Source: an uncultured virus (IMG/VR IMGVR_UViG_3300002835_000038) (taxonomy: Duplodnaviria; Heunggongvirae; Uroviricota; Caudoviricetes). Taken from it: a DNA stretch of 64,000 bases. This document shows, in pieces, positions 1 to 61,200 of the stretch; positions within the stretch are counted from its first letter, which is position 1; the number at the start of each line of letters is the position of its first letter. The notes beneath the pieces are model-generated. The model saw only the letters and a program-made list of their open reading frames with translations. It did not search any database and had not been told where the DNA came from. Both the position numbers and the translations under genes were made by a program. The DNA is taken from IMG/VR virus record IMGVR_UViG_3300002835_000038, positions 1 through 64,000 of that record; one strand, 5' to 3'.

Positions 1-76
1 TGGGTAGAATCAGACGCGTTCTGTCTACCGAGACCTTGTCGTTAACTTTCGTCAGAGCGGAACAAGACACTATTAG

Positions 77-150
77 TGATCCCGAATGGATTCGAACCAT
101 TGACCTACTGCTTAGAAGGCAGTTGCTCTATCCAGCTGAGCTACGGGACC
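77..150 (-). tRNA. tRNA-Arg(UCU)
   Basis: Cloverleaf on minus strand; anticodon loop CTTCTAA; T-loop GTTCGAATC. Confidence 0.95.
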
Positions 151-155
151 AATTT

Positions 156-320
156 TAAAAGATGATGAATGACTTTATCAGGAATCTCGCCTTCGACTTC
201 ACACACCATTAGAGAGTCGGGAATTACGACAATACAATTAAGAATGTCAACCTATCCTTAGTGTGTACCCTTGCGTCACGTCTCTCCACGCTTATCATTC
301 TACGCTTTGTATCACCTTTT
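156..320 (-). ncRNA. Unknown structured RNA between tRNAs (~165 nt)
   Basis: Terminal stem AAAAGGTGAT/ATCATCTTTT; inner hairpin CGACT/AGTCG; GC-richer than background; no convincing ORF. Confidence 0.5.
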
Positions 321-321
321 G

Positions 322-406
322 TAGTCGGGGCGGGAATCGAACCCGCACGGACGCAATGTCCATTGGATTTTAAGTCCAACGTGTCTACCTATTCCACCAC
401 CCGACC
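322..406 (-). tRNA. tRNA-Leu(UAA)
   Basis: Cloverleaf with long variable arm; loop CTTAAAA. Confidence 0.95.
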
Positions 407-441
407 AAAAGTATTAACCAATAAATTAAAGAACATTCTAG

Positions 442-513
442 TACTGCCACGGGGAATCGAACCCCGCTTTTATGGATGAAAACCATAGGTCCTAACCGAT
501 AGACGATGGCAGC
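442..513 (-). tRNA. tRNA-Glu(UUC)
   Basis: Cloverleaf; loop TTTTCAT. Confidence 0.93.
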
Positions 514-519
514 GGTTTG

Positions 520-594
520 CGGTGCGTATGGGATTCGAACCCATGACCTCTGCCGTGACAGGGCAGCATTCTAACCAGGCTAAACTAACGCACC
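520..594 (-). tRNA. tRNA-Asp(GUC)
   Basis: Cloverleaf; loop CTGTCAC. Confidence 0.95.
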
Positions 595-597
595 ATA

Positions 598-735
598 CCC
601 CCTTTATTAACCCCATTCTGATTATCTTTATACTACAATCAGACGTTACTAATGTAGTCCTTATCGTATTGTCTGACACCACTATCATATTACCCTAGTG
701 ACTTAGGCATCCACAGTGAGGAGTTAGGGGGACTA
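598..735 (-). ncRNA. Unknown structured RNA (~140 nt)
   Basis: Closing stem CCCCC-TAACTCC/GGGGTTA-GGGGG; internal complementary pairs TCAGAC/GTCTGA, ACTACA/TGTAGT, TCTGATT/AATCAGA. Confidence 0.4.
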
Positions 736-743
736 GTATTATA

Positions 744-965
744 AAACCAACAGGACTATCAAACACCTTTACTCCGTAGTCTTAGTATTTTATCGACTTT
801 AAGAGATCTGTACTCGATTCTTTTCGATTAGACTTTTAATCCTTATCGATTATACCTTTCCTCCCAGACTTCGTATTCTTTGCGCAAACCTATCCGAAGT
901 TCAAAGGGTCAGGTCCTTTAGTGATGAAAAATTAGTCATCTTATTTGATAGAACACTGTTGGTTT
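744..965 (-). ncRNA. Unknown structured RNA (~220 nt, long closing stem)
   Basis: AAACCAACAG/CTGTTGGTTT (744-753 with 956-965) stacked on CTATCAAA/TTTGATAG (756-763 with 944-951); follows a boxA-like motif. Confidence 0.5.
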
Positions 966-974
966 AAATATGTT

Positions 975-983
975 TCAAAGAAC
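975..983 (-). promoter_or_regulatory. boxA-like antitermination motif GTTCTTTGA
   Basis: Same 9-mer precedes or lies within five stable-RNA loci in the window. Confidence 0.55.
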
Positions 984-1045
984 GCTTTCTTTTTTTCTTT
1001 TACAATTATAACTACTATTTTTTAAAAAAACAATAGATATGACAA

Positions 1046-1462
1046 TTATTTTTCAGATATTTTATCTAAGATTTTAGACAAAGAATGGACTATCTGAGAT
1101 TTAATCTCATTCTCATAACCCATTCTAAGATCTTCAGTCTTTTCGTTATAACTACGAATAAGTTTATTCCAATCTCTGTCAGATAATTTGACATCATAAT
1201 GGTAAACATGATTAGTGATACTAACCTGACGATCCTCTAAAACGACAAACAAATTAAGTGTTGCGTTTTTGATGTACCTTTTTTCAGATAGAGGTGCAAT
1301 CATAAATTTAGAATCTTTGTGAGATATCATCTTTCTACAGATGGCATTACAAATAGCCTCATTCTGAGTTTTTTCCTCTTTAGGTTTTAGGGCTCTGTAA
1401 TGTATCCATAAAGTATACTTCACATACATTCTTTTCCAAAGTCTTTTAAAAAAATTTTTCAT
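1046..1462 (-). CDS. Hypothetical protein
   Basis: 138-aa ORF with upstream TATCTTTG promoter motif. Confidence 0.8.
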   Translation of the reverse strand: MKNFFKRLWKRMYVKYTLWIHYRALKPKEEKTQNEAICNAICRKMISHKDSKFMIAPLSEKRYIKNATLNLFVVLEDRQVSITNHVYHYDVKLSDRDWNKLIRSYNEKTEDLRMGYENEIKSQIVHSLSKILDKISEK

Positions 1463-1542
1463 AGTTATTTGTTTTATTTAGACAAAGATACAAATAATTT
1501 TCAATCTACCAAATTTTTTTTTATTTTTTTTAGTTTAGTACG

Positions 1543-2977: not shown

Positions 2978-3604
2978 TTAAAATTCTTTGTCTAACTTTT
3001 CAATCTTTTCAACTTCTGGTTTATCCATCACACATTTAATTTTTGTGGATGAGTCATCTTTTCTATGTGAAAAATGAATATGAGAATCAACAGTCATATC
3101 TGATCTATGCGGATTTCTTTTCCACCTTTCATTTCGTATTACTTGTACAATATCAAATGACATTCTACAACTATCATCCACATTTTCATTATAGATACCC
3201 CAAGAACCATTTCTAGTCATTAATGGATCATTAATCAACATGTTACGAGGTTGCACTAACATCTCATCAACATTATCTCTAATATTATGATACCTACCAT
3301 AATCAGTACTCAATTTCACATCTTTTAGTTTCTTCCATTCCTTTTCCTTACACCAATGTCCAGTTTCTTTACTAACAGAACCATTTATTAACGCCTTACC
3401 ATCTTTAATCTCTAATATTTCACCTTGTGGAGTTCTATCCCCAACCTCTGGTTGTCTTTTAGGTCTACAAACTTCCTCTAAATATACTTCAAAGGTTGGG
3501 TGATCTTTGATAACCTCAAATTGCCCAATACCTACTCTAGAGTAAAAGTCTAATGCCTTTTCTACTAACCAAAGTTGTTCGTCAGTTAATTCTAAATTAT
3601 TCAT
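2978..3604 (-). CDS. Hypothetical protein
   Basis: 208-aa ORF in tightly packed operon. Confidence 0.8.
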   Translation of the reverse strand: MNNLELTDEQLWLVEKALDFYSRVGIGQFEVIKDHPTFEVYLEEVCRPKRQPEVGDRTPQGEILEIKDGKALINGSVSKETGHWCKEKEWKKLKDVKLSTDYGRYHNIRDNVDEMLVQPRNMLINDPLMTRNGSWGIYNENVDDSCRMSFDIVQVIRNERWKRNPHRSDMTVDSHIHFSHRKDDSSTKIKCVMDKPEVEKIEKLDKEF

Positions 3605-5422: not shown

Positions 5423-5629
5423 TTATTCACCCTTTAATAATTTTTCTTTACAATAATTATAAATTTCTTTAGCCCTATCATACTTATCCACTCTTTCATT
5501 CCAAATCACAGTAACAATATAATAAGCCTCCCAATAACTACAATTTTCAATTACATTTATATACTCCTCAACAGGAACACCCAACTCTTGTGCAATTCCC
5601 TGATCCACCATATTAAATACACCTATCAT
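5423..5629 (-). CDS. Hypothetical protein
   Basis: 68-aa ORF in operon. Confidence 0.65.
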   Translation of the reverse strand: MIGVFNMVDQGIAQELGVPVEEYINVIENCSYWEAYYIVTVIWNERVDKYDRAKEIYNYCKEKLLKGE

Positions 5630-5630
5630 A

Positions 5631-6203
5631 TTATTTTAAAAATTTAAGTATTTTATCTTTAATCCCTGATTGTTTAATACCTTCATGTCCTCTTGGCGTT
5701 AAAACAAAATTATCCAATCCCCAATCTTTCCAATCTTCACCATTCTTACCCATATCTAGATCATCAACCGCAACCCAATGTGTAATCTCAGGATGATCGT
5801 GTAGATATTGTTTTATCTCAATAACTCTAGTCATTTCTAAATCCCATCTCGGTGACCATATCCAAACCATATCATTGTACCAATTACACTGTCCTAAGTT
5901 TGGTGTTAAATCTATTGGCTTTTTAATAATACCCTGAGATTCGTAATACTCACCCATCTCTTCTAAGTTTGCCCATCGTTTCCAATCGGATGAGGTGACA
6001 ATCTCAGTACCAGTTTCTTCTATAATTTTATTAAGAATCTTAATTGCTTTTTGATTGAAGTTATCAAATCGGTACTCCAAAGGGAAATCCCCCATAGACA
6101 TAGATAACTTACGACCATCCCATTTTTCTTGTTTCTTACGTCTCCCACCCCATTCTGAAGATAAACAAATTACCCCATCATGATCTAAAAATATAACTTT
6201 CAT
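5631..6203 (-). CDS. HAD phosphatase (RNA-repair-associated HAD_SAK-like)
   Basis: KVIFLDHDGV, IVTSSDW, WVAVDD motifs. Confidence 0.75.
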   Translation of the reverse strand: MKVIFLDHDGVICLSSEWGGRRKKQEKWDGRKLSMSMGDFPLEYRFDNFNQKAIKILNKIIEETGTEIVTSSDWKRWANLEEMGEYYESQGIIKKPIDLTPNLGQCNWYNDMVWIWSPRWDLEMTRVIEIKQYLHDHPEITHWVAVDDLDMGKNGEDWKDWGLDNFVLTPRGHEGIKQSGIKDKILKFLK

Positions 6204-7364: not shown

Positions 7365-7433
7365 AATATATAATTTAGTAAACAAATATAGTTATTATTT
7401 CCCATAAAAACAAATGTTTTAACATTTTTATAG

Positions 7434-7508
7434 TACCAAAGGTGAGATTCGAACTCACAAACCTTTGTTTCTAAGACAAAGAGGTATACCTATTCCCGTC
7501 ACTTTGGT
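7434..7508 (-). tRNA. tRNA-Leu(UAG), short variable loop
   Basis: Cloverleaf; loop CTTAGAA; 75 nt. Confidence 0.85.
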
Positions 7509-7514
7509 ATTTTG

Positions 7515-7587
7515 AGCAGGTGGAGAGAATCGAACTCTCGTCCTCTGATTGGAAGTCAGACATAATAAGCCACTATACGACACCTGC
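7515..7587 (-). tRNA. tRNA-Gly(UCC)
   Basis: Cloverleaf; loop CTTCCAA. Confidence 0.95.
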
Positions 7588-7737
7588 ATAATTAGTTTAC
7601 CTAATTTTTAATTTTTTAAAGATATTGATTATCTTTTTGAGATTGAGATTACTTCTCCTACTCAAAAGAAAGTTCACATTTTCTTTTGATGATTTAAACG
7701 TTCCTTTTACTACTACTTTCATATTATTTATTTTTTG

Positions 7738-7811
7738 TGGATACATCTCGGCTTCGAACCGAGGACTCCTGAGTGCAAATCAGGTATGATAGCCAGCTTC
7801 ATCAATGACCC
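7738..7811 (-). tRNA. tRNA-Ala(UGC)
   Basis: Loop TTTGCAC; G3-U pair; one-nt bulge in acceptor stem. Confidence 0.85.
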
Positions 7812-7816
7812 ATTAG

Positions 7817-7891
7817 TTGCGGGGGAGGGACTCGAACCCACGTAGTTCGGCTTATGAGACCGAGCTGGAACCACCTCCAGTCTACCCCGCA
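7817..7891 (-). tRNA. tRNA-Met(CAU), initiator-like
   Basis: Loop CTCATAA; GCGGGG/CCCCGC acceptor stem and TCGG anticodon stem resemble tRNA-fMet. Confidence 0.85.
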
Positions 7892-7923
7892 ATTTTTAAT
7901 TACACCGAATTCGGTATATTTAG

Positions 7924-7998
7924 TTCTCCCGACAGGATTCGAACCTGTGACTCCCTCATTAAAAGTGAGGTGCTCTAAACCAACTGAGCTACGAGAGA
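7924..7998 (-). tRNA. tRNA-Lys(UUU)
   Basis: Cloverleaf; loop CTTTTAA. Confidence 0.95.
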
Positions 7999-8004
7999 TT
8001 GTTG

Positions 8005-8076
8005 AGGTTCCGCTCAGATTCGAACTGAGGACACATGATTACAAATCAAGCGTTTTACCAACTAAACTACAGAACC
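8005..8076 (-). tRNA. tRNA-Thr(UGU)
   Basis: Cloverleaf; loop TTTGTAA. Confidence 0.9.
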
Positions 8077-8123
8077 TTATTATCACCCGTATGGTAACCG
8101 CTTGATTAACGGGCGAAAAATAG

Positions 8124-8196
8124 TAGTCTCTGTAGGGTTCGAACCTACGACATCTTGCATGTAAAACAAGCACTCTACCAACTGAGTTAAGAGACT
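8124..8196 (-). tRNA. tRNA-Val(UAC)
   Basis: Cloverleaf; loop TTTACAT. Confidence 0.93.
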
Positions 8197-8200
8197 GTTG

Positions 8201-8284
8201 CGGAAGAGTGAGGTATCGATCCCCATACCCGAAGGTACCACTAGTTTTCAAGACTAGGTCCAGCGCCAGCTGAATTACTCTTCC
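8201..8284 (-). tRNA. tRNA-Ser(UGA)
   Basis: Long variable arm; loop CTTGAAA; G73. Confidence 0.92.
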
Positions 8285-8300
8285 AGTTTTTTTCAATACG

Positions 8301-8309
8301 TCAAAGAAC
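8301..8309 (-). promoter_or_regulatory. boxA-like motif GTTCTTTGA
   Basis: Between attenuator terminator 1 and the first tRNA. Confidence 0.55.
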
Positions 8310-8310
8310 T

Positions 8311-8344
8311 AAAAACAAAAAACCCTAAGTTTTCACTTAGGGTT
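8311..8344 (-). terminator. Attenuator intrinsic terminator 1
   Basis: AACCCTAAGT-GAAA-ACTTAGGGTT followed by TTTTGTTTTT. Confidence 0.9.
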
Positions 8345-8371
8345 CCCATTTATAGTATTAAAATTTTACGA

Positions 8372-8470
8372 TTAACTAATGTGACATACCCTAAGTATTG
8401 GATGAAGCGAATCCGCCCCTTCCATTTTCGTCTTAACGACCTCTAGTCTGTATGTGAATGTAGTTAACAT
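8372..8470 (-). CDS. Leader (attenuator) peptide 1, 32 aa: MLTTFTYRLEVVKTKMEGADSLHPILRVCHIS
   Basis: ATG to TAA between promoter and terminator; contains ACTTAGGGT complementary to the terminator 5' arm; core codons match downstream tRNAs. Confidence 0.8.
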   Translation of the reverse strand: MLTTFTYRLEVVKTKMEGADSLHPILRVCHIS

Positions 8471-8482
8471 TGAATTTTTATT

Positions 8483-8537
8483 TGTTTTTAATTAAATATA
8501 CACAAATATACAAAAGTTTAAACAAAAAGTCAAATAT
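8483..8537 (-). promoter_or_regulatory. Promoter of tRNA operon 2 (TTGACT-17 nt-TATATTTG)
   Basis: Near-identical 55-bp copy at 10326-10380; matches Bacteroidota -33 TTTG / -7 TAnnTTTG consensus. Confidence 0.8.
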
Positions 8538-8553
8538 TTTTAAAAAAATATTT

Positions 8554-8928
8554 TTATTTCATATTATCCATAGTAAGTTTATCTGCAATATAAACGTGTT
8601 TTAATTCCATTTTGAATTTATTTTCGAACCACTCCTTAAAAAAATAAAGGAATGATTTGTTAGATTCAAATTCTGGTGATTCTTTAATAAAGTTTTTATA
8701 AACTTCATATCTTATTTCAAGAAAACCCCCAAACGCAAAATATGTCATAATAACATTAGGTAGTGTTAATTCAATTGAATTAGGTTTTGTCCAAATTCTT
8801 TTTCTAATCGATTTACCGTTAAAAACATGTATCACATTTTTTTCCTTTTTAAACCTAACTTCTTTAAATAAAGAATTAAATGTATCCTCACCAATTTTTT
8901 TTTCTGTAATTACCATATCTTTTCCCAT
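8554..8928 (-). CDS. Hypothetical protein
   Basis: 124-aa ORF with its own TATCTTTG promoter motif. Confidence 0.7.
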   Translation of the reverse strand: MGKDMVITEKKIGEDTFNSLFKEVRFKKEKNVIHVFNGKSIRKRIWTKPNSIELTLPNVIMTYFAFGGFLEIRYEVYKNFIKESPEFESNKSFLYFFKEWFENKFKMELKHVYIADKLTMDNMK

Positions 8929-9001
8929 AGTTTTTGATTTATTTAGACAAAGATATGAATAATTTTCATTCTACCAAATTTTTTAACGTTATTTTTATTT
9001 G

Positions 9002-9075
9002 AGGTCAGAGTGAGATTCGAACTCACGAAAAGTAGTTTTGCAGACTACCCCTTTAAACCACTCAGGCATCTGACC
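9002..9075 (-). tRNA. tRNA-Cys(GCA)
   Basis: Loop CTGCAAA; U73. Confidence 0.95.
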
Positions 9076-9144
9076 GTTAGTTCACTAAACTATATTTTGC
9101 TTAATAAATTACATTTGTTTATTGTTGCAAAAATAAGTTTATCG

Positions 9145-9217
9145 TACACTCTGAGAGATTCGAACTCCCATCTTATGATCCGTAGTCATAGGTTCTGATC
9201 CATTGAACTAAGAGTGT
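9145..9217 (-). tRNA. tRNA-Arg(ACG)
   Basis: Loop CTACGGA. Confidence 0.93.
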
Positions 9218-9219
9218 AT

Positions 9220-9294
9220 TGGTAGGGATGGGTGGAGTCGAACCACCGAGACTACTGTATAAGAGTAGCATGTTCACCGTTACATCACATCCCC
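9220..9294 (-). tRNA. tRNA-Ile(UAU)
   Basis: CTACT-CTTATAC-AGTAG anticodon arm; encoded CCA. Confidence 0.85.
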
Positions 9295-9302
9295 ATATTT
9301 TG

Positions 9303-9389
9303 CGGAAAGAATAGGATTCGAACCTACGGTACCCTTTCAAGTACAACACCTTAGCAGGGTGCCACAATAAACCGCTCTGTCATCTTTCC
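9303..9389 (-). tRNA. tRNA-Ser(GCU)
   Basis: Long variable arm; loop CTGCTAA. Confidence 0.95.
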
Positions 9390-9393
9390 ATTA

Positions 9394-9467
9394 GGTGTAC
9401 GATGGGACTCGAACCCACTATTGACGGAATCACAACCCGACGCCTCGACCACTTTGGCTTCATACAC
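9394..9467 (-). tRNA. tRNA-His(GUG)
   Basis: Loop TTGTGAT; C73. Confidence 0.9.
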
Positions 9468-9469
9468 AG

Positions 9470-9540
9470 TTGTCTCCCAAGGATTCGAACCTCGATTAAG
9501 TGGACCAAAACCACTTGTCCTGCCATTAGACGAGGAGACA
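9470..9540 (-). tRNA. tRNA-Gln(UUG)
   Basis: Loop TTTTGGT; U1-A72. Confidence 0.93.
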
Positions 9541-9547
9541 TTATTTG

Positions 9548-9636
9548 TCTAAGTGATGGGACTCGAACCCACATAGAACTGTTACATTCATTCCTGATCC
9601 CAAATCAGGTCGGCGACCAATTGCCTACACACCTAG
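9548..9636 (-). tRNA. tRNA-Pro(UGG), extended variable region
   Basis: Loop TTTGGGA; C1-G72, A73; ~19-nt variable region. Confidence 0.85.
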
Positions 9637-9642
9637 TTATTG

Positions 9643-9715
9643 TGGAACAGGTAGGAATCGAACCTACATTGTCGGATTTTCAGTCCGATGCCTTGACCAA
9701 CTTGGCAACTATTCC
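9643..9715 (-). tRNA. tRNA-Phe(GAA)
   Basis: Loop CTGAAAA. Confidence 0.93.
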
Positions 9716-9720
9716 ATTTG

Positions 9721-9791
9721 CACACCCCCAAAGATTCGAACTCTGACCAAACGGGTTGGAGCCGTTTATGCTACCGTTACACTAGAGATGT
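9721..9791 (-). tRNA. tRNA-Trp(CCA)
   Basis: Loop CTCCAAC. Confidence 0.9.
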
Positions 9792-9795
9792 GTAT

Positions 9796-9870
9796 AAATG
9801 TTCAGGAAGACTTTTTTTACATTTCCAAATTAGTAGTTTTTTATTTGCTGAAATCTTCCTTTTAACATTT
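9796..9870 (-). ncRNA. Small stem-closed RNA (candidate Y-like RNA, copy A)
   Basis: AAATGTT/AACATTT and AGGAAGAT/GTCTTCCT stems; loop begins TTCAGCAA..AAAAACTAC, as in the RNAs beside the TROVE gene. Confidence 0.55.
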
Positions 9871-9871
9871 G

Positions 9872-9954
9872 TGAGGGTAGTAGGATTCGAACCTACTCAG
9901 TCATAGACAACAGATTTACAGTCTGCCCCAACTCTCCAACTTTGGCGTACCCCC
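9872..9954 (-). tRNA. tRNA-Tyr(GUA)
   Basis: Long variable arm; loop CTGTAAA. Confidence 0.95.
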
Positions 9955-9966
9955 ATTAATTATTTG

Positions 9967-10040
9967 CGATTCAGGCAGGACTCGAACCTGCGACAACTTG
10001 ATTAACAGTCAAGGGCTCTAACCAACTGAGCTACTGAATC
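9967..10040 (-). tRNA. tRNA-Asn(GUU)
   Basis: Loop CTGTTAA. Confidence 0.95.
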
Positions 10041-10058
10041 ATTTAATTTTACATTATA

Positions 10059-10067
10059 TCAAAGAAC
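10059..10067 (-). promoter_or_regulatory. boxA-like motif GTTCTTTGA
   Basis: Spacer after the first tRNA of operon 3. Confidence 0.55.
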
Positions 10068-10077
10068 TTATGTTCTG

Positions 10078-10153
10078 TCGGTATGGTAGGGATCGAACCT
10101 ACGAATCTTCTCGATATCAGCGAGATGCCTTAAACCTACTTGGCCACATACCG
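10078..10153 (-). tRNA. tRNA-Ile(GAU)
   Basis: Loop CTGATAT. Confidence 0.92.
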
Positions 10154-10162
10154 TAATAAATT

Positions 10163-10193
10163 AAAAAACCCCAACTCATTTCTGAATTGGGGT
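10163..10193 (-). terminator. Attenuator intrinsic terminator 2
   Basis: ACCCCAATTCA-GAAA-TGAGTTGGGGT followed by TTTTT. Confidence 0.9.
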
Positions 10194-10219
10194 ACTTTAA
10201 TCCTTTATTTATTTATCTA

Positions 10220-10318
10220 TCAAAATTTAAATAACGACATAACATACCCCATCCTTCCGTAAATATAAAACGGTTGACACCACTGTATCGGATTACTATG
10301 TATGTTATTCATTATCAT
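10220..10318 (-). CDS. Leader (attenuator) peptide 2, 32 aa: MIMNNIHSNPIQWCQPFYIYGRMGYVMSLFKF
   Basis: ATG to TGA between promoter and terminator; TGGGGTAT complementary to GTACCCCA of the terminator 5' arm; core codons match downstream tRNAs. Confidence 0.8.
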   Translation of the reverse strand: MIMNNIHSNPIQWCQPFYIYGRMGYVMSLFKF

Positions 10319-10325
10319 TTTTTAC

Positions 10326-10380
10326 TGTTTTTAATTAAATATACACAAATATACAAAAGTTTAATTAAAAAGTCAAATAT
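10326..10380 (-). promoter_or_regulatory. Promoter of tRNA operon 3 (TTGACT-17 nt-TATATTTG)
   Basis: Near-identical to 8483-8537. Confidence 0.8.
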
Positions 10381-10454
10381 ATTTTTAAAATTATTTTTTT
10401 TAAAATAAAAAACCCCTAAAAATAGGGGCTTAACAAAAATTTATTTTTTGTTTT

Positions 10455-14410: not shown

Positions 14411-14413
14411 TAG

Positions 14414-14781
14414 TGGAGGTGGAGGGTTTCGAACCCTCGTCCTTCCCATGTCCAAATGGATTTCTACGTGTGTAGTCAGTTTTTCTAAACTAACAAAATA
14501 GACAGTTCCCTTATTACACTGTTCGGTTTACTGACAACTAATCCTCAGTCTTCTTATTTATAAAGGTTCAAAAAGATAATAACCTGTATGTATTACTCGA
14601 TTAGGCGAATACAACCTCTTCTTTTGCAATTGTACCTACAGTACCATTCAAAAGAATGTTTTCGTTTAGGGCTAAGCCCATGTTTGTATCGTTGCCGACT
14701 ATTGTTTTTTTTAGATTAACGCTCTACCACGACACGCTTACGCCTACTCTTCTTACGCGAAGTCAAATCCAATACACCCCC
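14414..14781 (-). ncRNA. ssrA: tmRNA
   Basis: 5' GGGGGTG..GGATTTGAC; 3' GGTTCGAAACCCTCCACCTCCA; G3-U70 alanine determinant; internal tag ORF 14601-14696. Confidence 0.93.
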
Positions 14782-55203: not shown

Positions 55204-58200
55204 TTATTCTGTTGTACAATTATGTATTAATTCTTGATTATAAAAATACCCACCTTCTTCCCAGTCAGGATCACCAAGTATTGTTACATTACCCTCATAT
55301 TCATTTGTATCATAAATTTGAGTTATAAATACCTTATTATAATCACTAATTAAAGTGTTAGAAACTCTAACACATTTATTAACTTTATCTCTTAAAATAG
55401 AAATATAATTTCTTTGTCTTTCGTACAGTGTAGTTCCTGGTATAAAATTAACCAAATTATTTTCTGCCTGTACTAAAGTTTCTGTAAGTCCACTACAACT
55501 CATAAAATTACTATAATAATTTTGTTGTTGTAATAAATATTGGGTTTCCTCATTACTTAAATTAGTAAGTAAATTACTTAATTGTGTTTCTAAATTAGTA
55601 AGGTTACCAGTCAATAATTGTATTTGTGCCGTCACCACATCAATCTGAGATTGTAGGTTAGGTGTATCTAAATCTTGTAAGTTTAACGAACACAATATTT
55701 TATTTTGTGCAGCGATATTATCCTTAACTAATTCTATTTGAATGTTTTTTATTTTTATTTGATTTTTAATATTGTTTATCACATCATTAGTAGGGTAAAT
55801 TGGTATTTGTTCTACTAATGAATAAACGTCTTCCGAACCAATACTAAAATCTGTATACGCACTTAACGTACAACCTGTTGTCGTTTCAATAAAGTTTAAA
55901 CTATATTTTTTATACTGAAATTTGTTTTGATCGAAAATCGTGTTTCTATATACTTTACCTGAATTATCACAACCTTCCCAAATCGTAGTTGCTGGGACAA
56001 CTTGTTCTAATAAATTTAACCAATAGTCCCCAATTTTATCCATAAATTCAAACATAGTATTATATGTGAATTTACCTGACAATTCTTTACCACAATTATT
56101 GGCGTTTAGATATAGTTCATAGAATAACCTTAGTAATGGATAATCACTAATAGTTTGTCTACTTTTTACATCAATTAGATTTGATTGTACTAATTGGTCA
56201 AACATATCTTTTACATTGATTTCTGATGGTTGTACATCTAAATAATCTAATGGGTTAATACAGATATTATATGTATTACCTGTGTAGTATCCGTTAGAAC
56301 ATTCATTTAAAGTTCCACAGTATTCACAATCACCTTCACATACACTACATCCATCAATTGGTTTCCATACACAATATCCGTTGTTACTGTCCCACTGGTA
56401 GTTTTTACCCAATCCTAACCCATCTAAACCTTCACCGTTTAAAATACTGTTTAATGTTTTACAACAGTTTTCATCCACAAAAGTGGTTTGATTAAATGTT
56501 TGTGCAGTTACACCACTTAAAACTTCAACTAAAGTACCACCAGTATAAGGTGTACTACCACTATAGATATATGTCTCATAAACAGATAAAGTACCATCAT
56601 AATTTTCAGTTATTAAACCAAATAAATTATCTGTTTGTTGATTGTTATTAATAACCAACGTATCTGTACCACAATTATTATTTTGTATTTCAAAACCTGA
56701 AAGACTTGATCCTAAATTTAATAAATCATAGTATGATGCATTTAAGGAATTTGTATAATCTGAGGTTAATGCATAGTATTCATTTTTTAACTCAGTAACT
56801 TGATTTACCAAAGTATTTGTAAATGTCGAACAACTAAATGTTAATCCTGTTGTGGATGCGGACAAATCTAATGAATAATCAAATAGTGTTGTAGAACTAT
56901 ATACCTGCCCACTATAAACTACAGTACTAGCAGATGTACAATTTGTAGGACAACTACCACTACAATCTATATTTTTCCAAAAATTAAATACGTCACATTC
57001 TATAGCCTTCGCAGGATCTATACTAAATGTGGTGTTTTTAACATTAATAATTAAATCTGAATGATTAACGTCATAATTCGTATATCTATATTCTAAGTCA
57101 GTCCACAATCTTTCTTCAGGTGTACCTAATTTTACTACCTGATAATTACTTGTTGATGCCGTATTACAAGGTCCATCAGGATATATAGTTTCTGTAATTA
57201 TTCCCTGATCAGTGTAAACCCAAGATTTTTTATTGTCAATAACACAACTCAATTGTGGAATTAAACAATTATTCAATGAAACTAATCGTTCTGTTTTACA
57301 ATCAGAAACATTAATTATAATGTTATCAATTAATAAACATACTGAACAGTTATAGTTTTCTATCTCAACTGAAAAGAAAAATTCTTTTTCGGGATATAAT
57401 CTCCTTAAATCATCACACACACATTCTGGTATAGTGAAATTAAAGGTATTCCAATTAGGTTGGAATAAGTTTGAGTTATATGGTGTGTTTGAGTTAGATA
57501 ATTCTGTGAAAACAGAATCCTCTATTAAGGCAATATCTTGTTCAGAACCTTCCAATATAATACCACTATATCCAACTGAAGGGTTAAATACCCAAAATGG
57601 GTTAACTGACTGTGTATACGGTAAATAAGTTAAATTAGAGTCAACTTGACTAGTATAAACTAAATTATTATTATCCACAAACAATTTAAAATTAAGTTTT
57701 AAATCATCAATTAATGTTAAATAACTTTCAGTACTATTAATATAGTCGTTATATTGTGTTAGTATTTCAGAATACCATTCATCATAAACAGACTCTGTAA
57801 TATTTTCTATCTCTATTAATTTTGTTTGTAGTGTTTCTAATGTATTATTTAGATAATTAAATAATTCTTGACTACAACAAGGGTTAGGTAATGTTGGATC
57901 ACATGGACTAGGTATTTCTGCCTGTGCTTCCGCTATAACATCTACAATTTCATCTATAGTAATTGTAGTTTTTAAGGTTGAATTATCGTTTTGTACGATA
58001 TCATATGTTATATCTTCCTTTTGTTTTTCTAATGCACTAACCTGTGTTTTATTTTTTTGTAGTTCAATATTTAACGTAACCTTTTGACTATCATTTAATA
58101 CAATTTGACCTTCAGCATTAGTAATCGATTTAGGTGTAACACCTAATATTATTGCAGTTTTATTAATGGTATTAATATAATCATTATTATCTAAAGTAGA

Positions 58201-61200
58201 TTTTTGAGTTGTTTCATCACCAATTACTAAATAATTTTTAGATAATGTGTTGATGTTCTCTTTTACTACATTAATATCTTTTACTAAAGTATTTTCTACT
58301 TCTTTTTGGTTTTCAAATTTTGCAACAACTAATTGTTCTTCTAAATAATTATTTTGTTGACAATTATATAATAAATTTGAGTAGACTGTTTTTTCAGAAC
58401 TTAATCTAGCATTTTCAGTTTTAACACAATTATTATATAATTCTCTATCTCTTGTATTAATTGTTTTAGTATTACCATAAACTTGTGCTTTACAATAAGA
58501 TTCAACGTCAAAGGTATTTATTTCATTAATCTTATCTTCATAAATTTTACAATCTAATGGTAATGTAGCATTAGATAATGCCTTATTAATTACCTCAATT
58601 TGACTATTTTTTTCTGTAATCTGAGAATCAATTAATGTCTCAGTAATTTTTAACTTATTATTTTCAGTAGTTAATATATCTACTTGAGTTTCTTTACTTG
58701 AGATTAATGTATTCTTTTGTTTTTCAGAATTTATAATTTCATTAGATAACACAGACTTAGTTGGTTGATTTTCGGGTACCTCCTCTAAATTACAGTTAAA
58801 TTCGTATTGTGATATTACCCCAATAATTCCTTCTATAGTATTCTTATAATCCATATATAGATTAGTCCAAAGTCCATATTCTAATGGTATTTCTAACATA
58901 CAAATATTTGTAGTAGTTATATATTCATTAAAGTCTATAAAACATCCTGGTTGAACTATGTTTAAAGTGAAACAATCACCTATTGATATGTCTACCTCTT
59001 TTTTAATGTTATTTAAATCTGTACCATATGTAATCAATTCACTATAATCAAAATCAAATGAACCTAATAACTCACTATTTGGTGTTGTAACTATTTCTTC
59101 ATATGTATCAGAAATATTTTTAACCCAATTAGCATTAACTGAATACGAATCCTTCAATGATGCGATGTTTCCACCTACCGCATTACAACATTCAACAATT
59201 GGTTCGTTTTGTTGTGTGTTTTGCCATATAACATATTCTTCAGTTACATCCTCACTATCATTAAAGTTATTTTCTAAAATAGAACTTTCTTCCGAACTGT
59301 TAGTAAAAGAAACAAAGTTCATACATAATAAACTATTTAATGAATTATCATGAATAATTGCTGGATAACAATCTATTCTTGTTACACACTCTTTTAAATT
59401 TTCTGTCTGATATTTTACCATATAGTCAAAAGAAAAGTCTACTTTACAAGAACAATCTGTAACTTCAGGTAATTTAAATCCTGACCAAGCCTCACTCGCA
59501 AATACAATTGATACGTTATCTAAACTACCACACCCTATATGATTTGGATCAACAACCGCATTACTTATTGAGTTAGGGTTTTCTACATATAGATTACCAT
59601 TATCAACATACGGTATTAAATTATTTGTTGTTGTATCAATATAAAAAGAACCATATGTATACTGAGTAAACAGTTCTCCAACTGACTGATACAATTCTGC
59701 CAATTGTCCTGTTGCGTTCCAATCTAAAATGAAATCATTATAATATTCGATAGGAGTAAAACTTACTCTACCATATTCGTCTATTACGTGAACAACCCAA
59801 TTTGCTGGATTCATAAAATCAGGATCTTCAAACAAAGAATTTAAAATAACTTCAAAACAATCAATACAATCTTCACCAACACCTTTAACTATTATAGCCT
59901 CTTCTAAACAATCATCATATATTGTTGTCGAATAATATTGTGGTACTTCACCGATTGGGTTTTGTAATTCTACATAACCAATAGATGTATCAAATAACGA
60001 TGGTGGTATAACATACGTTGTTCCACCAGTTACAGTTGATAATTGATTACTATATGTCTCAATTTGTGTCTGTATTGTTGATTTTTCTATTTCAGTATTT
60101 AATGACTTATATGTTGTACCACCTATTGGTGTCTCTACAGTTTCTTTACCACTACCAGTCATACCTATAGGGTTTACATTAGGAACTGTAACACCACCTA
60201 AACCAATAACTGGTGAAGAAGGTAACGCAGGTACTGACGTGTTAGTAGTATTACCAACTGTCCCATTTGTTCCTGAAGTAGATGAGGTACCATTTAGTTC
60301 CCCCTCTAATCCCCCAATGTAATTTTGAATATCGTTTGTATTCGATGTTGGTGTAGTTAATGAACTACCTGAAATACATACAATATAACTTATATCATCT
60401 TCTTCAATAATTTGAAAATTGTATCCGTACCACGCACAACATTCAGGACTACTAATTATTGTTGTTAATTCACAATCAACTTCAACAAACCACTTAAAGA
60501 AATTAGACGGTAGACTGTTTGGGTTCAATCCGTTTAAATAAGTCTGTGGTGGAATTGTAGAGGTGTTTGATGATGGGGATGTCGAAAACTGTGTTACACC
60601 ATTAGGTGTTAACTGATAACATTTATTATTAAATGAATATATGTTATTTGGCATAGTATTATTAGTCAATTCAAACACTATAATACCATTAGGTAAAGTA
60701 TCAACTGGCTCACCAACACAAGGTGCAGTTTTAGAACAGTATTCAACTATTCTACATTCTTCATTAGTATATGTAACATATTGTCCACCTTCAGAAATAC
60801 AACAACTAGCAAATTCATTAAATGAAACCTTAGTACCACCAGAATTAACAAAGTATATATAAGGGTCACAAGTCACCGCACTTAAGGATGAACAATCTAT
60901 TTGGAAATTATCCTGTGGTATCTCATCAACACATATTTGTAATGTTTGATTAATGTCACAATTTTCAGAAGAAACTTCTAAAAGTGCATTGTTTTGTGCC
61001 ACCATATAGTTATTTTGTATTACATACCATTCTGGTGAATACGCCAAATAACTATTTTGTTGTATTTGTTGTTGGAAATTTAAATATGCTTCTTCAGCCG
61101 CCTCAAATTGTTGTTGGAATGTTGTCTTACCATCATTCTGTAGTGGCGTTTCAATAATACTATAATTAACGTTTACACAATCCTCTATGAATTGGTATGT

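What the first reader, a model, noticed from the sequence alone, without database searches (positions are those of the whole stretch)
7434..10380. Twin leader-peptide attenuators controlling phage tRNA operons (codon-matched tRNA-shortage sensors)
Seen: two tRNA operons share one layout on the minus strand. Each has a near-identical 55-bp promoter, then a 99-nt (32-aa) leader ORF, then a GAAA-capped intrinsic terminator, then tRNAs. Each leader's 3' half holds a sequence complementary to the terminator 5' arm (antiterminator), and its 5' end is complementary to that same region (protector ACATAC/GTATGT). The two leader cores divide the amino acids between them in step with the tRNAs. Leader 1 core is R L E V V K T K M E G A D S L. 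Leader 2 core is N N I H S N P I Q W C Q P F Y I Y. Together they cover all 20 amino acids, and Ser is split by codon box (TCG before tRNA-Ser UGA, AGT before tRNA-Ser GCU). Known: the trp, his, leu and ilv operons use ribosome-stalling attenuation to sense charged tRNA, and host anticodon nucleases such as PrrC deplete tRNAs during infection. Inference: the phage senses stalling on any of about 10 codon types and transcribes the tRNA set that fixes the shortage. I know of no described attenuator of this kind for tRNA genes, but I cannot search the literature here.
Basis: partly seen in the sequence, partly recalled or inferred. Interest (0 to 1): 0.95.

Follow-up and report, generated by a model that had tools for sequence, protein, structure and literature searches.

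The report
Codon-matched attenuators gating phage tRNA operons
Two short translated leaders sit in front of this phage's tRNA gene arrays and contain test codons for the very tRNAs that follow, a layout repeated in dozens of unrelated phages, which suggests the phage makes tRNAs only when decoding runs short.

Summary
On the minus strand there are two units, each with a promoter, a 32-codon ORF, an intrinsic terminator and then a tRNA array.

- The leaders stay in frame in relatives.
- The same layout occurs in a distant cultured phage, Cellulophaga phage phi4:1, which has three units.
- It also occurs in 32 non-redundant units from viral contigs and 14 new units from metagenome contigs.

Leader codons track the downstream tRNAs:
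- The leader covers 0.96 of array amino-acid types, against 0.73 when leaders and arrays are re-paired (0 of 20000 permutations reach it).
- The replicate set gives 1.00 against 0.69.
- The signal is frame-specific: 0.92 against 0.52-0.56.
- It peaks at codons 8-19.
- It favours wobble-read synonymous codons.

The last 48 nt of each ORF pair specifically with its own terminator's 5' arm (z -10).

After the terminator lies a motif that also flanks 16S and 23S rRNA genes in two Bacteroidota genomes. I read it as a boxA-like antitermination site.

Best reading: ribosome-stalling attenuators that gate phage tRNA transcription. No expression data could be obtained. Nine paper searches found no description of this.

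The parts
10410..10431 (-). Terminator of the upstream gene. It insulates unit 2.
10346..10377 (-). Unit 2 promoter, of the two-box Bacteroidota type.
10220..10318 (-). Leader ORF 2: 32 codons plus stop.
10259..10309 (-). Leader 2 sensor, codons 4-20. It uses 10 amino-acid types, all with a tRNA in array 2.
10300..10316 (-). Unit 2 region 1, the 5' strand of the 1:2 protector helix. It includes the start-codon region.
   Evidence: full-length MFE
10241..10255 (-). Unit 2 region 2. It pairs either with region 1 or with the terminator's 5' arm.
10160..10193 (-). Unit 2 attenuator terminator: 11-bp stem, 4-nt loop and U tract.
9001..10153 (-). tRNA array 2: Ile(gat), Asn, Tyr, Trp, Phe, Pro, Gln, His, Ser(gct), Ile(tat), Arg(acg), Cys.
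10047..10068 (-). boxA-like motif between tRNA-Ile and tRNA-Asn.
8503..8534 (-). Unit 1 promoter, near-identical to that of unit 2.
8372..8470 (-). Leader ORF 1: 32 codons plus stop.
8405..8449 (-). Leader 1 sensor, codons 8-22, using 11 amino-acid types. It contains two small hairpins that show compensatory changes in relatives.
8450..8455 (-). Unit 1 region 1 core. The full 1:2 helix also uses ORF nt 3-10.
8382..8397 (-). Unit 1 region 2, the 5' strand of the antiterminator.
8311..8347 (-). Unit 1 attenuator terminator: 13-bp stem, 4-nt loop and U tract.
8289..8310 (-). boxA-like motif directly after the attenuator.
8200..8284 (-). tRNA-Ser(tga), first gene of array 1, with an unusual T loop.
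7433..8196 (-). Rest of array 1: Val, Thr, Lys, Met, Ala, Gly, Leu(tag).
76..594 (-). Distal tRNAs Asp, Glu, Leu(taa), Arg(tct). Their codons sit in leader 1. In relatives, Asp and Glu lie inside operon 1.

Best explanation
Each unit is a ribosome-mediated transcription attenuator of the trp/his/thr/ilv kind. What it controls is a tRNA operon rather than biosynthetic genes.

Proposed mechanism:
1. Transcription starts at the promoter. A ribosome loads on the A-rich leader and translates a roughly 30-codon ORF.
2. Codons about 8-20 form the sensor. They hold at least one test codon for nearly every tRNA encoded downstream, and that codon is preferentially the wobble-read synonym.
3. If all test codons are decoded promptly, the ribosome runs over region 2, which lies in the last 10-30 nt of the ORF. 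The terminator hairpin forms 17-38 nt after the stop codon, and transcription ends.
4. If any test codon is decoded slowly, the ribosome stalls upstream. Slow decoding could come from a scarce or cleaved tRNA, from amino-acid starvation, or from a mismatch between the phage's codons and the host's tRNA pool.
5. Region 2 then stays free and pairs with the terminator's 5' arm, and RNA polymerase reads through.
6. RNA polymerase next meets a boxA-like site of the kind found in host rRNA operons and transcribes the untranslated tRNA array.
7. As phage tRNAs accumulate, leader translation speeds up and the unit shuts off. The whole is a demand-driven feedback loop.
8. With no ribosome loaded, region 1 pairs with region 2 and termination is the default.

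Shown here: the anatomy, the codon-to-tRNA match, the frame and position specificity, the wobble-codon bias, the unit-specific antiterminator complementarity, and the rRNA-operon identity of the downstream motif.

Inferred: that the leader is translated, the direction of control, the coupling kinetics, binding of Nus factors, and the physiological trigger.
For: ANATOMY IN THE WINDOW.

CONSERVATION IN FRAME. Leader ORFs persist in relatives at 74-100% identity of a neighbouring protein. In leader 2 the same 10 amino-acid types appear in a different order. One relative has GTG in place of ATG.

TRACKING OF tRNA LOSS. A relative whose operon lacks Glu and Met tRNAs has a leader core without Glu and Met.

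DISTANT LINEAGES.
- Contig G003: a leader with 4 Thr, 4 Arg and 3 Glu codons stands before tRNAs Glu, Arg, Thr.
- Cellulophaga phage phi4:1: three units whose leaders cover 6 of 6, 8 of 8 (Met aside) and 5 of 5 amino-acid types of their own arrays.

UNBIASED SAMPLE. A DNA pattern made of terminator end plus motif gave 82 matches in 80 viral loci, and 48 had tRNAs directly downstream. That yielded 48 units (46 from loci, 2 from the window), reduced to 32 non-redundant units.

RE-PAIRING TEST, 20000 permutations of leader and array.
| Measure | Observed | Permuted | z |
| array types covered by the leader | 0.959 | 0.727 | 6.1 |
| leader residues with a tRNA in the array | 0.463 | 0.316 | 9.0 |
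| strict-wobble codon match | 0.405 | 0.254 | 9.9 |
None of the 20000 permutations reached the observed value on any measure. Coverage was complete in 27 of 32 units.

OTHER CONTROLS.
- Frame: anticodon-level coverage is 0.918 in frame, against 0.52-0.56 in the other five frames.
- Position: the match is 0.55-0.67 at codons 8-19 and 0.30-0.34 from codon 23 on.
- Same-locus genes: 0.532 in the sensor against 0.270; the sensor is higher in 40 of 42 units.
- Within-phage swaps, 9 units in 4 records: 119 residues of types specific to the unit's own array, against 27 specific to the other array (the single-unit L004 row is dropped).
- Six-fold amino acids: in 19 of 21 cases at least one codon lies in the box read by the array's tRNA.

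WOBBLE BIAS. In boxes read by U34 tRNAs, 67 of 125 sensor codons end in G (54%), against 19-21% in genes of the same loci (p about 1e-15). In boxes read by G34 tRNAs, C endings are not enriched (15% against 24%). So the bias is not a G+C effect.

ANTITERMINATOR. The last 48 nt of each ORF pair with its own terminator's 5' arm at -11.33 kcal/mol, against -7.85 when re-paired (z -10.1, 0 of 20000). The unit's own arm is the best of 32 in 17 units and in the top three in 23. The first 51 nt of the ORF, used as a control, give z 0.4.

REPLICATION. Metagenome contigs yielded 14 new non-redundant units. Coverage is 1.000 against 0.693 (z 4.2). The residue match has z 5.4 and the codon match z 5.7.

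SPECIFICITY TO PHAGE DNA. The same pattern in bacterial and archaeal genomes gave 80 matches, only 1 with a tRNA downstream, and that one had no leader.

DOWNSTREAM MOTIF. It lies a median of 18 nt before the first tRNA. Near-identical copies stand 188 nt upstream of 16S, in the spacer, and 125 nt and 78 nt upstream of 23S, in two Bacteroidota genomes.
Against: - No evidence of expression or translation.
- The match is one-sided. Nearly every tRNA has a test codon, but only about half of the sensor codons have a tRNA in the operon.
- One relative, L020, keeps a full leader-1-like ORF in front of only two tRNAs, Glu and Met.
- In the window, five leader-1 codons (Arg, Glu twice, Asp, and the second-codon Leu) correspond to tRNAs 7 kb away. 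Arg(acg) has no codon in leader 2.
- Taken one unit at a time, the antiterminator beats shuffles clearly in only 15 of 32 units.
- The region 1:2 helix is barely unit-specific across the family: z -1.8, with 855 of 20000 permutations reaching it.
- Hairpins inside the leader-1 sensor show compensatory changes. RNA structure therefore also shapes some of the codons.
- In 3 of 46 units a promoter-like box lies between the terminator and the first tRNA.
- Five other phages with tRNA genes have no such unit: a crAss-like phage with 24 tRNAs, Merlin, Cr30, SP-058 and immuto.
Confidence: 0.75

Rival explanations
1. The control runs the other way or acts at another step. Leader translation might license tRNA output, so that efficient decoding gives read-through. 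Or it might act after transcription, on the stability or processing of the tRNA precursor, rather than on termination.
For: The codon match shows only that leader translation and the array are linked. It does not show the direction of control. The terminator is always the most stable fold at equilibrium, and I have no kinetic data.
Against: The strand that pairs with the terminator's 5' arm lies inside the ORF's last 10-30 nt in 30 of 32 units. A translating ribosome would therefore remove the antiterminator, not the terminator. The stop codon lies 17-38 nt before the hairpin, which is too far for a terminating ribosome to melt it. The preference for weakly decoded wobble codons fits a shortage sensor.
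Confidence: 0.1
2. The short ORFs are not translated. The element would be an RNA-only or protein-dependent attenuator, for example one that contacts tRNA anticodons directly in the manner of a T-box. The ORFs would then be incidental.
For: There is no direct evidence of translation. Conserved hairpins with compensatory changes lie inside the 'sensor' of leader 1.
Against: - The codon match exists only in the ORF's frame: 0.918 against at most 0.56.
- The start is ATG or GTG at a fixed place.
- ORF length and the distance from stop codon to hairpin are tightly bounded.
- The third-position bias follows the wobble rules of the array's tRNAs.
- No T-box or other Rfam family matches at E up to 1.
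Confidence: 0.07
3. The resemblance is a by-product of composition. Phage genes and phage tRNAs both reflect the phage's codon usage, so any short ORF would match the arrays.
For: Re-paired leaders still cover 0.69-0.73 of array types. Baseline overlap is therefore high.
Against: - Sensor codons match their array twice as well as long ORFs of the same locus do: 0.532 against 0.270, higher in 40 of 42 units.
- Leaders match their own array, not the other array of the same phage: 119 against 27.
- The other five frames of the same DNA do not match.
- No permutation reached the observed values.
Confidence: 0.01

Closest known systems
Multivalent leader-peptide attenuators of the enterobacterial thr, ilvGMEDA and ilvBN operons, and the trp, his, leu and pheA attenuators (recalled from textbook knowledge; no paper was read here for this)
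   Same: All have a short translated leader with regulatory codons and an intrinsic terminator. All have an antiterminator that uses the terminator's 5' arm and a 1:2 hairpin. Read-through occurs when charged tRNA is short. In thr and ilv, several amino acids are sensed by one leader.
   Different: - The output is tRNA genes, not biosynthetic enzymes.
- The sensor holds single or few test codons for up to 10-12 different tRNAs, not runs of one to three amino acids.
- Sensor codons favour wobble-read synonyms.
- The unit is phage-encoded.
- A boxA-like site follows the terminator.
The pheM leader attenuator of pheST, which encodes phenylalanyl-tRNA synthetase (recalled)
   Same: A leader-peptide attenuator controls a component of the translation apparatus according to the supply of the matching charged tRNA.
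   Different: It has one amino acid and one enzyme as its target. Here the tRNA genes themselves are the target and the sensor is multi-codon.
T-box riboswitches
   Same: They sense tRNA status and gate an intrinsic terminator through an antiterminator.
   Different: A T-box binds uncharged tRNA directly through one specifier codon, with no translation. Here there is an in-frame ORF carrying many codons, and there is no Rfam T-box match.
The rrn boxA / Nus-factor antitermination system and the phage lambda nut boxA (consensus and role recalled)
   Same: The motif after the attenuator recurs upstream of 16S and 23S genes in two Bacteroidota genomes. Those are the places where rrn boxA elements sit.
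   Different: Here the motif is placed downstream of a regulated terminator and in front of phage tRNA arrays. Binding by NusB and NusE was not tested.
Phage tRNAs as a counter to tRNA-targeting host defences: PMC10264068 and PMC11464382 (only search listings and the starts of the abstracts were seen)
   Same: Both concern phage-encoded tRNAs that replace depleted host tRNAs.
   Different: As far as the listings show, those papers deal with the tRNAs themselves. Neither listing mentions a regulatory leader.

Membership tests
Ribosome-mediated (leader-peptide) transcription attenuator | A short ORF with start and stop codons in the 5' leader of the regulated operon, conserved in frame | tested here: met
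   Leaders have a median of 31 codons (range 19-42) in 46 units. ATG and GTG interchange at the start.
Ribosome-mediated (leader-peptide) transcription attenuator | Regulatory codons in the ORF that match what the operon supplies | tested here: met
   The match is to the tRNAs encoded downstream. It is frame-specific and position-specific.
Ribosome-mediated (leader-peptide) transcription attenuator | An intrinsic terminator between the ORF and the first regulated gene | tested here: met
   The gap from stop codon to hairpin has a median of 25 nt.
Ribosome-mediated (leader-peptide) transcription attenuator | An antiterminator helix that shares the terminator's 5' arm and whose other strand is reachable by the translating ribosome | tested here: met
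   own against re-paired, z -10.1; that strand lies in the ORF's 3' end in 30 of 32 units.
Ribosome-mediated (leader-peptide) transcription attenuator | A 1:2 anti-antiterminator or pause hairpin | tested here: inconclusive
   It is present in both window units and in the leader-1 family consensus. Across the family, specificity is weak (z -1.8).
Ribosome-mediated (leader-peptide) transcription attenuator | Leader translation, and read-through that depends on ribosome stalling | not testable with these tools
No raw RNA reads were available.
Ribosome-mediated (leader-peptide) transcription attenuator | Regulated genes are amino-acid biosynthesis or aminoacyl-tRNA synthetase genes, as in all described members I can recall | tested here: not met
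   The regulated genes are tRNA genes. This is the point of novelty, so I file the finding as a variant of the family.
T-box riboswitch | Stem I with a specifier loop, plus the conserved T-box antiterminator sequence | tested here: not met
   No Rfam match at the leaders at E up to 1.
rrn-type boxA antitermination site | A conserved motif found in the rRNA operon leader and in the 16S-23S spacer of the host phylum | tested here: met
   The motif lies 188 nt before 16S, after the spacer tRNAs, and 125 nt and 78 nt before 23S, in two Bacteroidota genomes.
rrn-type boxA antitermination site | Binding of NusB and NusE, and resistance of RNA polymerase to termination | not testable with these tools
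   This needs biochemistry.

The most novel reading that the evidence does not exclude
Phage tRNA arrays are run by a modular test-codon homeostat. Every tRNA gene has its own weakly decoded test codon in a translated leader. A stall on any one of them opens the attenuator. A borrowed rRNA-operon boxA then carries RNA polymerase through the array.

In its boldest form, this device is the phage's alarm against host immunity that cleaves or depletes tRNAs. Phage tRNA synthesis would switch on exactly when, and for which set, the host attacks.
Probability: 0.3. Interest if true: 0.95.

Novelty: new variant of a known kind. Interest (0 to 1): 0.9.

Why it matters
- **An open question.** Phage tRNA genes have been known for over fifty years, and why phages carry them is still debated. 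I know of no regulatory logic described for them, and nine full-text searches found none.
- **What it would show.** A leader that tests the decoding of exactly the codons served by the downstream tRNAs would mean that tRNA supply is demand-regulated. It would tie phage tRNAs to decoding shortage during infection.
- **Directly testable.** Cultured phage-host pairs carry the units. Cellulophaga phage phi4:1 has three.
- **Natural reporters.** The units are compact natural reporters of codon-specific decoding capacity in Bacteroidota, and building blocks for synthetic tRNA or amino-acid sensors.
- **Annotation.** Short 'hypothetical proteins' inside tRNA arrays can be re-read as leaders. In phi4:1 one is annotated from a start codon that lies inside the promoter. 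Another annotated 'protein' there looks like a tRNA-Ser gene.

Tried and rejected
- **Whole genome.** The window's genome is not held.
- **Read laying.** No expression evidence was obtained.
- **Strand folding.** A batch call was rejected for length. The folds were done with ViennaRNA in scripts instead.
- **Pattern with too few bases.** A pattern with too few specified bases was rejected.
- **A 15-nt pattern.** A pattern from the conserved start of leader 1 gave mostly chance hits. Only 2 of 80 matches had a tRNA within 450 nt downstream: one locus already known, and one chance hit beside a tRNA-Thr.
- **Flavobacterium phage immuto.** This cultured relative has four tRNAs and no leader-plus-terminator unit.
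- **Host of contig L105.** Its unit has a different, sigma-70-like promoter. A tblastn of a neighbouring protein against cultured phages found nothing, so I make no claim about hosts outside Bacteroidota.
- **Literature search for the motif letters with 'boxA'.** It returned only primer coincidences.
- **First generic scanner.** It had two bugs and missed the positive controls. It was fixed.
- **Typed peptide strings.** The comparison was redone from stored objects.
- **L015-type leader.** An antiterminator could not be shown for it (z -0.1).

Full report
**1. What is in the window**

The region lies on the minus strand of what is clearly a large phage genome. It has 23 tRNA genes called by ARAGORN plus a tmRNA, and long runs of same-strand ORFs. 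The nearest relatives are uncultured viral contigs of 48-326 kb. DNA runs labelled lake water metagenome hold 92-98% of the stretch's sampled words.

There are two units with the same layout.

| Element | Unit 2 | Unit 1 |
|---|---|---|
| Promoter | 10346-10377 | 8503-8534 |
| 32-codon ORF | 10220-10318 | 8372-8470 |
| Terminator | 10168-10193 | 8318-8347 |
| tRNAs | twelve, down to 9001 | Ser(tga) at 8200-8284, then seven down to 7433 |

- The promoters match a two-box pattern that I recalled as the Bacteroidota consensus. It is over-represented in the window: 13 matches against 3.9 expected.
- The two promoters are copies of each other. The repeat is 85 nt at 88% identity. A 50-nt pattern from it is found twice, against 0 expected.
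- Both terminators have the same 4-nt loop.
- Unit 2 is insulated from the upstream gene by a separate terminator at 10410-10431.
- No Rfam family matches either leader at E up to 1.

**2. The alternative helices in the window**

| Pairing (duplex energy) | Unit 1 | Unit 2 |
|---|---|---|
| Region 2 with the terminator's 5' arm (2:3) | -14.0 kcal/mol | -11.9 kcal/mol |
| Terminator itself (3:4) | -15.7 | -16.5 |
| ORF 5' end with region 2 (1:2) | -12.4 | -10.5 |

- Region 2 is ORF nt 74-89 in unit 1 and nt 64-78 in unit 2.
- Against 200 shuffles of the leader, only 2 (unit 1) and 4 (unit 2) reach the observed 2:3 energy.
- When the 3' arm is left out, the minimum-energy fold shows the 2:3 helix.
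- In the full-length fold the ORF's 5' end, start codon region included, pairs with region 2 and its flank. In unit 2 this helix is about 17 bp.

**3. The codon-to-tRNA match in the window**

- Leader 2, codons 4-20, use ten amino-acid types. Every one has a tRNA in array 2. Among 158 ATG ORFs of 25-40 codons in the six frames of the window, this ORF ranks first.
- Leader 1, codons 8-22, use eleven types. Eight have tRNAs in operon 1.
- The tRNAs for Asp, Glu and Arg(tct), and the Leu(taa) tRNA that would read codon 2, lie in a separate cluster at 76-594.
- Leader 1 ranks first of 158 against the combined set, but only 13th against operon 1 alone.
- In six related contigs, tRNA-Asp and tRNA-Glu sit inside operon 1. 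The window's arrangement therefore looks like a later relocation.
- Arg(acg) of array 2 has no matching codon in leader 2. A homologous leader in contig L115 does carry one.
- The Ser codon in each core falls in the box read by that unit's Ser tRNA. tRNA-Ser(tga) has an unusual T loop and needs a relaxed ARAGORN threshold to be called.

**4. Relatives keep the ORFs**

I fetched 41 loci through a neighbouring phosphoesterase gene. They carry leader-1 and leader-2 homologues in frame.

- Leader 2 in L004, L007 and L014 has the same ten amino-acid types as the window's, in a different order. This is what selection on codon content, rather than on a peptide, would produce.
- In L004 the start is GTG where the others have ATG.
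- The L015 group has lost tRNA-Glu and tRNA-Met from the operon, and its leader core has lost Glu and Met. It also lacks Ala, although tRNA-Ala is still present.
- L020 is a counter-example to strict tracking: a full leader stands before only Glu and Met tRNAs.
- An RNAalifold consensus of six leader-1 variants shows the terminator, a closing 1:2 helix, and two small hairpins inside the sensor. Seven pairs changed on both sides, six of them in those hairpins and one in the terminator.
- Part of the sensor is therefore under RNA-structure constraint as well.

**5. The same device in unrelated phages**

- In contig G003, a 24-codon leader with four Thr, four Arg and three Glu codons precedes a terminator and the tRNAs Glu, Arg(tct) and Thr.
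- In cultured Cellulophaga phage phi4:1, the roughly 22 tRNAs fall into three units.
  - Each unit has its own promoter, leader and terminator. Two of the promoters are identical copies.
  - The leaders cover 6 of 6, 8 of 8 (Met aside) and 5 of 5 amino-acid types of their own arrays.
  - They also have the right codon boxes for the two Leu and the two Arg tRNAs.
  - One leader is annotated as gp075, from a start inside the promoter. gp076 looks like a tRNA-Ser gene.

**6. An unbiased sample and its statistics**

I scanned viral contigs for a pattern that says nothing about leaders or tRNAs: the end of a terminator plus a 9-nt motif seen after the window's unit 1.

- The scan gave 82 matches in the 80 loci with DNA, and 48 had tRNAs directly downstream.
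- Leaders were picked by a blind rule: the longest ATG ORF of 12-48 codons ending at most 95 nt before the hairpin.
- Two loci dropped out: L075 had no hairpin and L079 had no ORF.
- With the two window units this gave 48 units. Clustering at 60% peptide identity left 32. L086 was dropped because it comes from the same contig as L001, whose two leader peptides are identical to the window's.

| Test | Observed | Control |
|---|---|---|
| Array amino-acid types covered by the leader | 0.959 | 0.727 re-paired (z 6.1) |
| Leader residues with a tRNA in the array | 0.463 | 0.316 re-paired (z 9.0) |
| Strict-wobble codon match | 0.405 | 0.254 re-paired (z 9.9) |
| Anticodon-level coverage | 0.918 in frame | 0.52-0.56 in the other five frames |
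| Match by position | 0.55-0.67 at codons 8-19 | 0.30-0.34 from codon 23 on |
| Sensor match against long ORFs of the same locus | 0.532 | 0.270 (higher in 40 of 42; Wilcoxon p 2e-8) |
| Residues of a type specific to the unit's own array | 119 | 27 specific to the other array of the same phage |

- No re-pairing permutation out of 20000 reached the observed value on any of the three measures.
- 27 of 32 units have complete coverage.
- The within-phage comparison uses 9 units in 4 records. I dropped the L004 row, where only one unit was detected.
- For Leu, Arg and Ser, 19 of 21 informative cases have at least one codon in the box read by the array's tRNA.

**7. Synonymous-codon choice**

- In boxes read by the array's U34 tRNAs, sensor codons 8-21 end in G 67 times and in A 58 times (54% G). 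Long ORFs of the same loci give 19-21% G (p about 1e-15).
- In boxes read by G34 tRNAs, C endings are not enriched: 14 of 92 (15%) against 24%. So this is not a G+C or structure effect.
- In both classes the sensor leans towards the codon read by wobble.
- Codons 2-7 show no such bias.
- A bias that follows the wobble rules of the downstream tRNAs is hard to explain unless the ORF is decoded. It fits a sensor tuned to stall easily.

**8. The antiterminator covaries with the terminator**

- The last 48 nt of each ORF pair with its own terminator's 5' arm at a mean of -11.33 kcal/mol. Re-paired among the 32 units, the mean is -7.85 (z -10.1, 0 of 20000).
- A unit's own arm is the best of 32 in 17 units and in the top three in 23.
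- The first 51 nt of the ORF, used as a control, show nothing (z 0.4).
- The pairing strand ends inside the ORF in 30 of 32 units.
- The hairpin starts 17-38 nt after the stop codon.
- A ribosome that finishes the ORF therefore covers the antiterminator strand and does not reach the terminator. This is the classical geometry.
- The 1:2 helix is only weakly unit-specific (z -1.8; 855 of 20000).

**9. Replication and specificity**

- The same pattern in metagenome contigs gave 80 matches, 28 with tRNAs, and 18 units. Fourteen of these are non-redundant and unlike the first set.
- In those 14, coverage is 1.000 against 0.693 (z 4.2), and the residue and codon matches have z 5.4 and 5.7.
- Among the new units, one leader has alternating Lys, His and Phe codons before an array of only His, Phe and Lys tRNAs. 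Another is rich in Pro, Gln and His codons before Pro, His and Gln tRNAs.
- In bacterial and archaeal genomes the same pattern gave 80 matches, and only one had a tRNA within 400 nt downstream. It had no leader.
- Five other phages with tRNA genes have no unit: a crAss-like phage with 24 tRNAs, Merlin, Cr30, SP-058 and immuto. The device is common but not universal.
- 28 of the 46 units have the recalled Bacteroidota -7 box within 90 nt upstream.
- One unit, L105, has a sigma-70-like promoter and higher G+C, and its host is unknown. Each of its 12 tRNAs has a strict-wobble cognate codon in the leader, by my own reading of the ORF printed.

**10. The motif after the terminator**

- The 9-nt motif extends to a 17-nt consensus. 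It lies a median of 18 nt before the first tRNA.
- In the window it follows the unit-1 terminator (8289-8310). It also lies between the first two tRNAs of array 2 (10047-10068), and a copy of its 9-nt core lies at about 965-990, ahead of the distal cluster.
- Near-identical copies occur in a Flavobacteriaceae genome: 188 nt upstream of 16S, after the spacer tRNA-Ile, and 125 nt upstream of 23S. In a Pseudarcicella genome a copy lies 78 nt upstream of 23S.
- These are the positions of rrn boxA elements, and the letters resemble the boxA consensus as I recall it. The literature search for this gave nothing useful.
- I read the motif as a boxA-like loading site. It would let RNA polymerase that has passed the attenuator transcribe the untranslated array without premature termination.
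- Its place after the regulated terminator would keep it from overriding the attenuator.

**11. Mechanism, rivals and limits**

The best-supported reading is a ribosome-stalling attenuator with a polyvalent test-codon sensor. Its output, tRNAs, relieves the stall, which gives negative feedback on decoding capacity.

- I put this at 0.75.
- The main uncertainty is the complete lack of expression data.
- The direction of control is inferred from geometry.
- The trigger is open. It could be codon-usage mismatch, starvation, or host nucleases that cut tRNAs.

**12. Novelty**

- Nine full-text searches returned no paper describing a leader peptide or attenuator in front of tRNA genes. I saw only listings and the starts of abstracts.
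- One survey of viral tRNA genes, PMC6409571, has no occurrence of 'attenuat', 'leader', 'terminator' or 'promoter' in its text (term search only).
- Subscription journals are not covered by the library.
- The mechanism class is classical. The regulated target, the many-codon sensor, the wobble-codon tuning, the boxA coupling and the phage setting appear to be new.

Noticed in passing
window 14411-14781 (-): The phage encodes its own tmRNA (Rfam 110.9 bits; ARAGORN gives an 8-residue tag). A ribosome-rescue RNA is notable in a genome that seems to use ribosome stalling as a signal.
   Followed up: no
window 594-1046 and 150-321 (-): About 450 nt before tRNA-Asp and about 170 nt between tRNA-Leu(taa) and tRNA-Arg(tct) hold no ORF of 60 codons or more on the tRNA strand. 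They have no Rfam match at E up to 1. The first stretch is preceded by a copy of the 9-nt core of the boxA-like motif, at about 965-990. These may be unknown structured RNAs co-transcribed with the tRNAs.
   Followed up: partly
window 9547-9636 (-): tRNA-Pro(tgg) is 90 nt long with an extra arm. It scores below Rfam's tRNA threshold (26.7 against 29 bits).
   Followed up: no
window 8200-8284 (-): tRNA-Ser(tga) has a divergent T loop. Default ARAGORN misses it, and Rfam's best model is tRNA-Sec, although the anticodon reads Ser codons. Relatives have a more canonical copy at the same place.
   Followed up: partly
window 8948-8978 and 1483-1513 (-): A second pair of near-identical promoters stands before the 124-codon and 138-codon ORFs. 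The first follows tRNA array 2 and the second precedes the distal tRNA cluster.
   Followed up: no
window 7597-7746 and 8077-8122 (-): A 49-codon ORF lies between tRNA-Ala and tRNA-Gly. A 46-nt spacer lies between tRNA-Val and tRNA-Thr and, by eye, holds a short inverted repeat (not folded). A spacer of similar size between tRNA-Ala and tRNA-Gly is also seen in relatives.
   Followed up: no
L050 (Cellulophaga phage phi4:1, KC821632.1) 3425-3544 and 5553-5654: gp075 is annotated from a start codon that lies inside the promoter. The likely leader starts at a GTG 36 nt further on. gp076 overlaps what looks like a tRNA-Ser(tga) gene.
   Followed up: partly
L105 around 3000: This unit has a sigma-70-like promoter and higher G+C. 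Each of its 12 downstream tRNAs, including two Leu, two Gln, two Arg and two Ser isoacceptors, has a cognate codon in a 22-codon leader. The host is unknown.
   Followed up: partly
L047 1610-1640 (G003): A promoter-like two-box site lies between the attenuator terminator and tRNA-Glu. Some arrays may therefore also have a constitutive start. A -7-type box lies between terminator and first tRNA in 3 of the 46 sampled units (L047 is not one of them).
   Followed up: partly
window 55204-63222 (-): A single ORF of 2672 codons.
   Followed up: no
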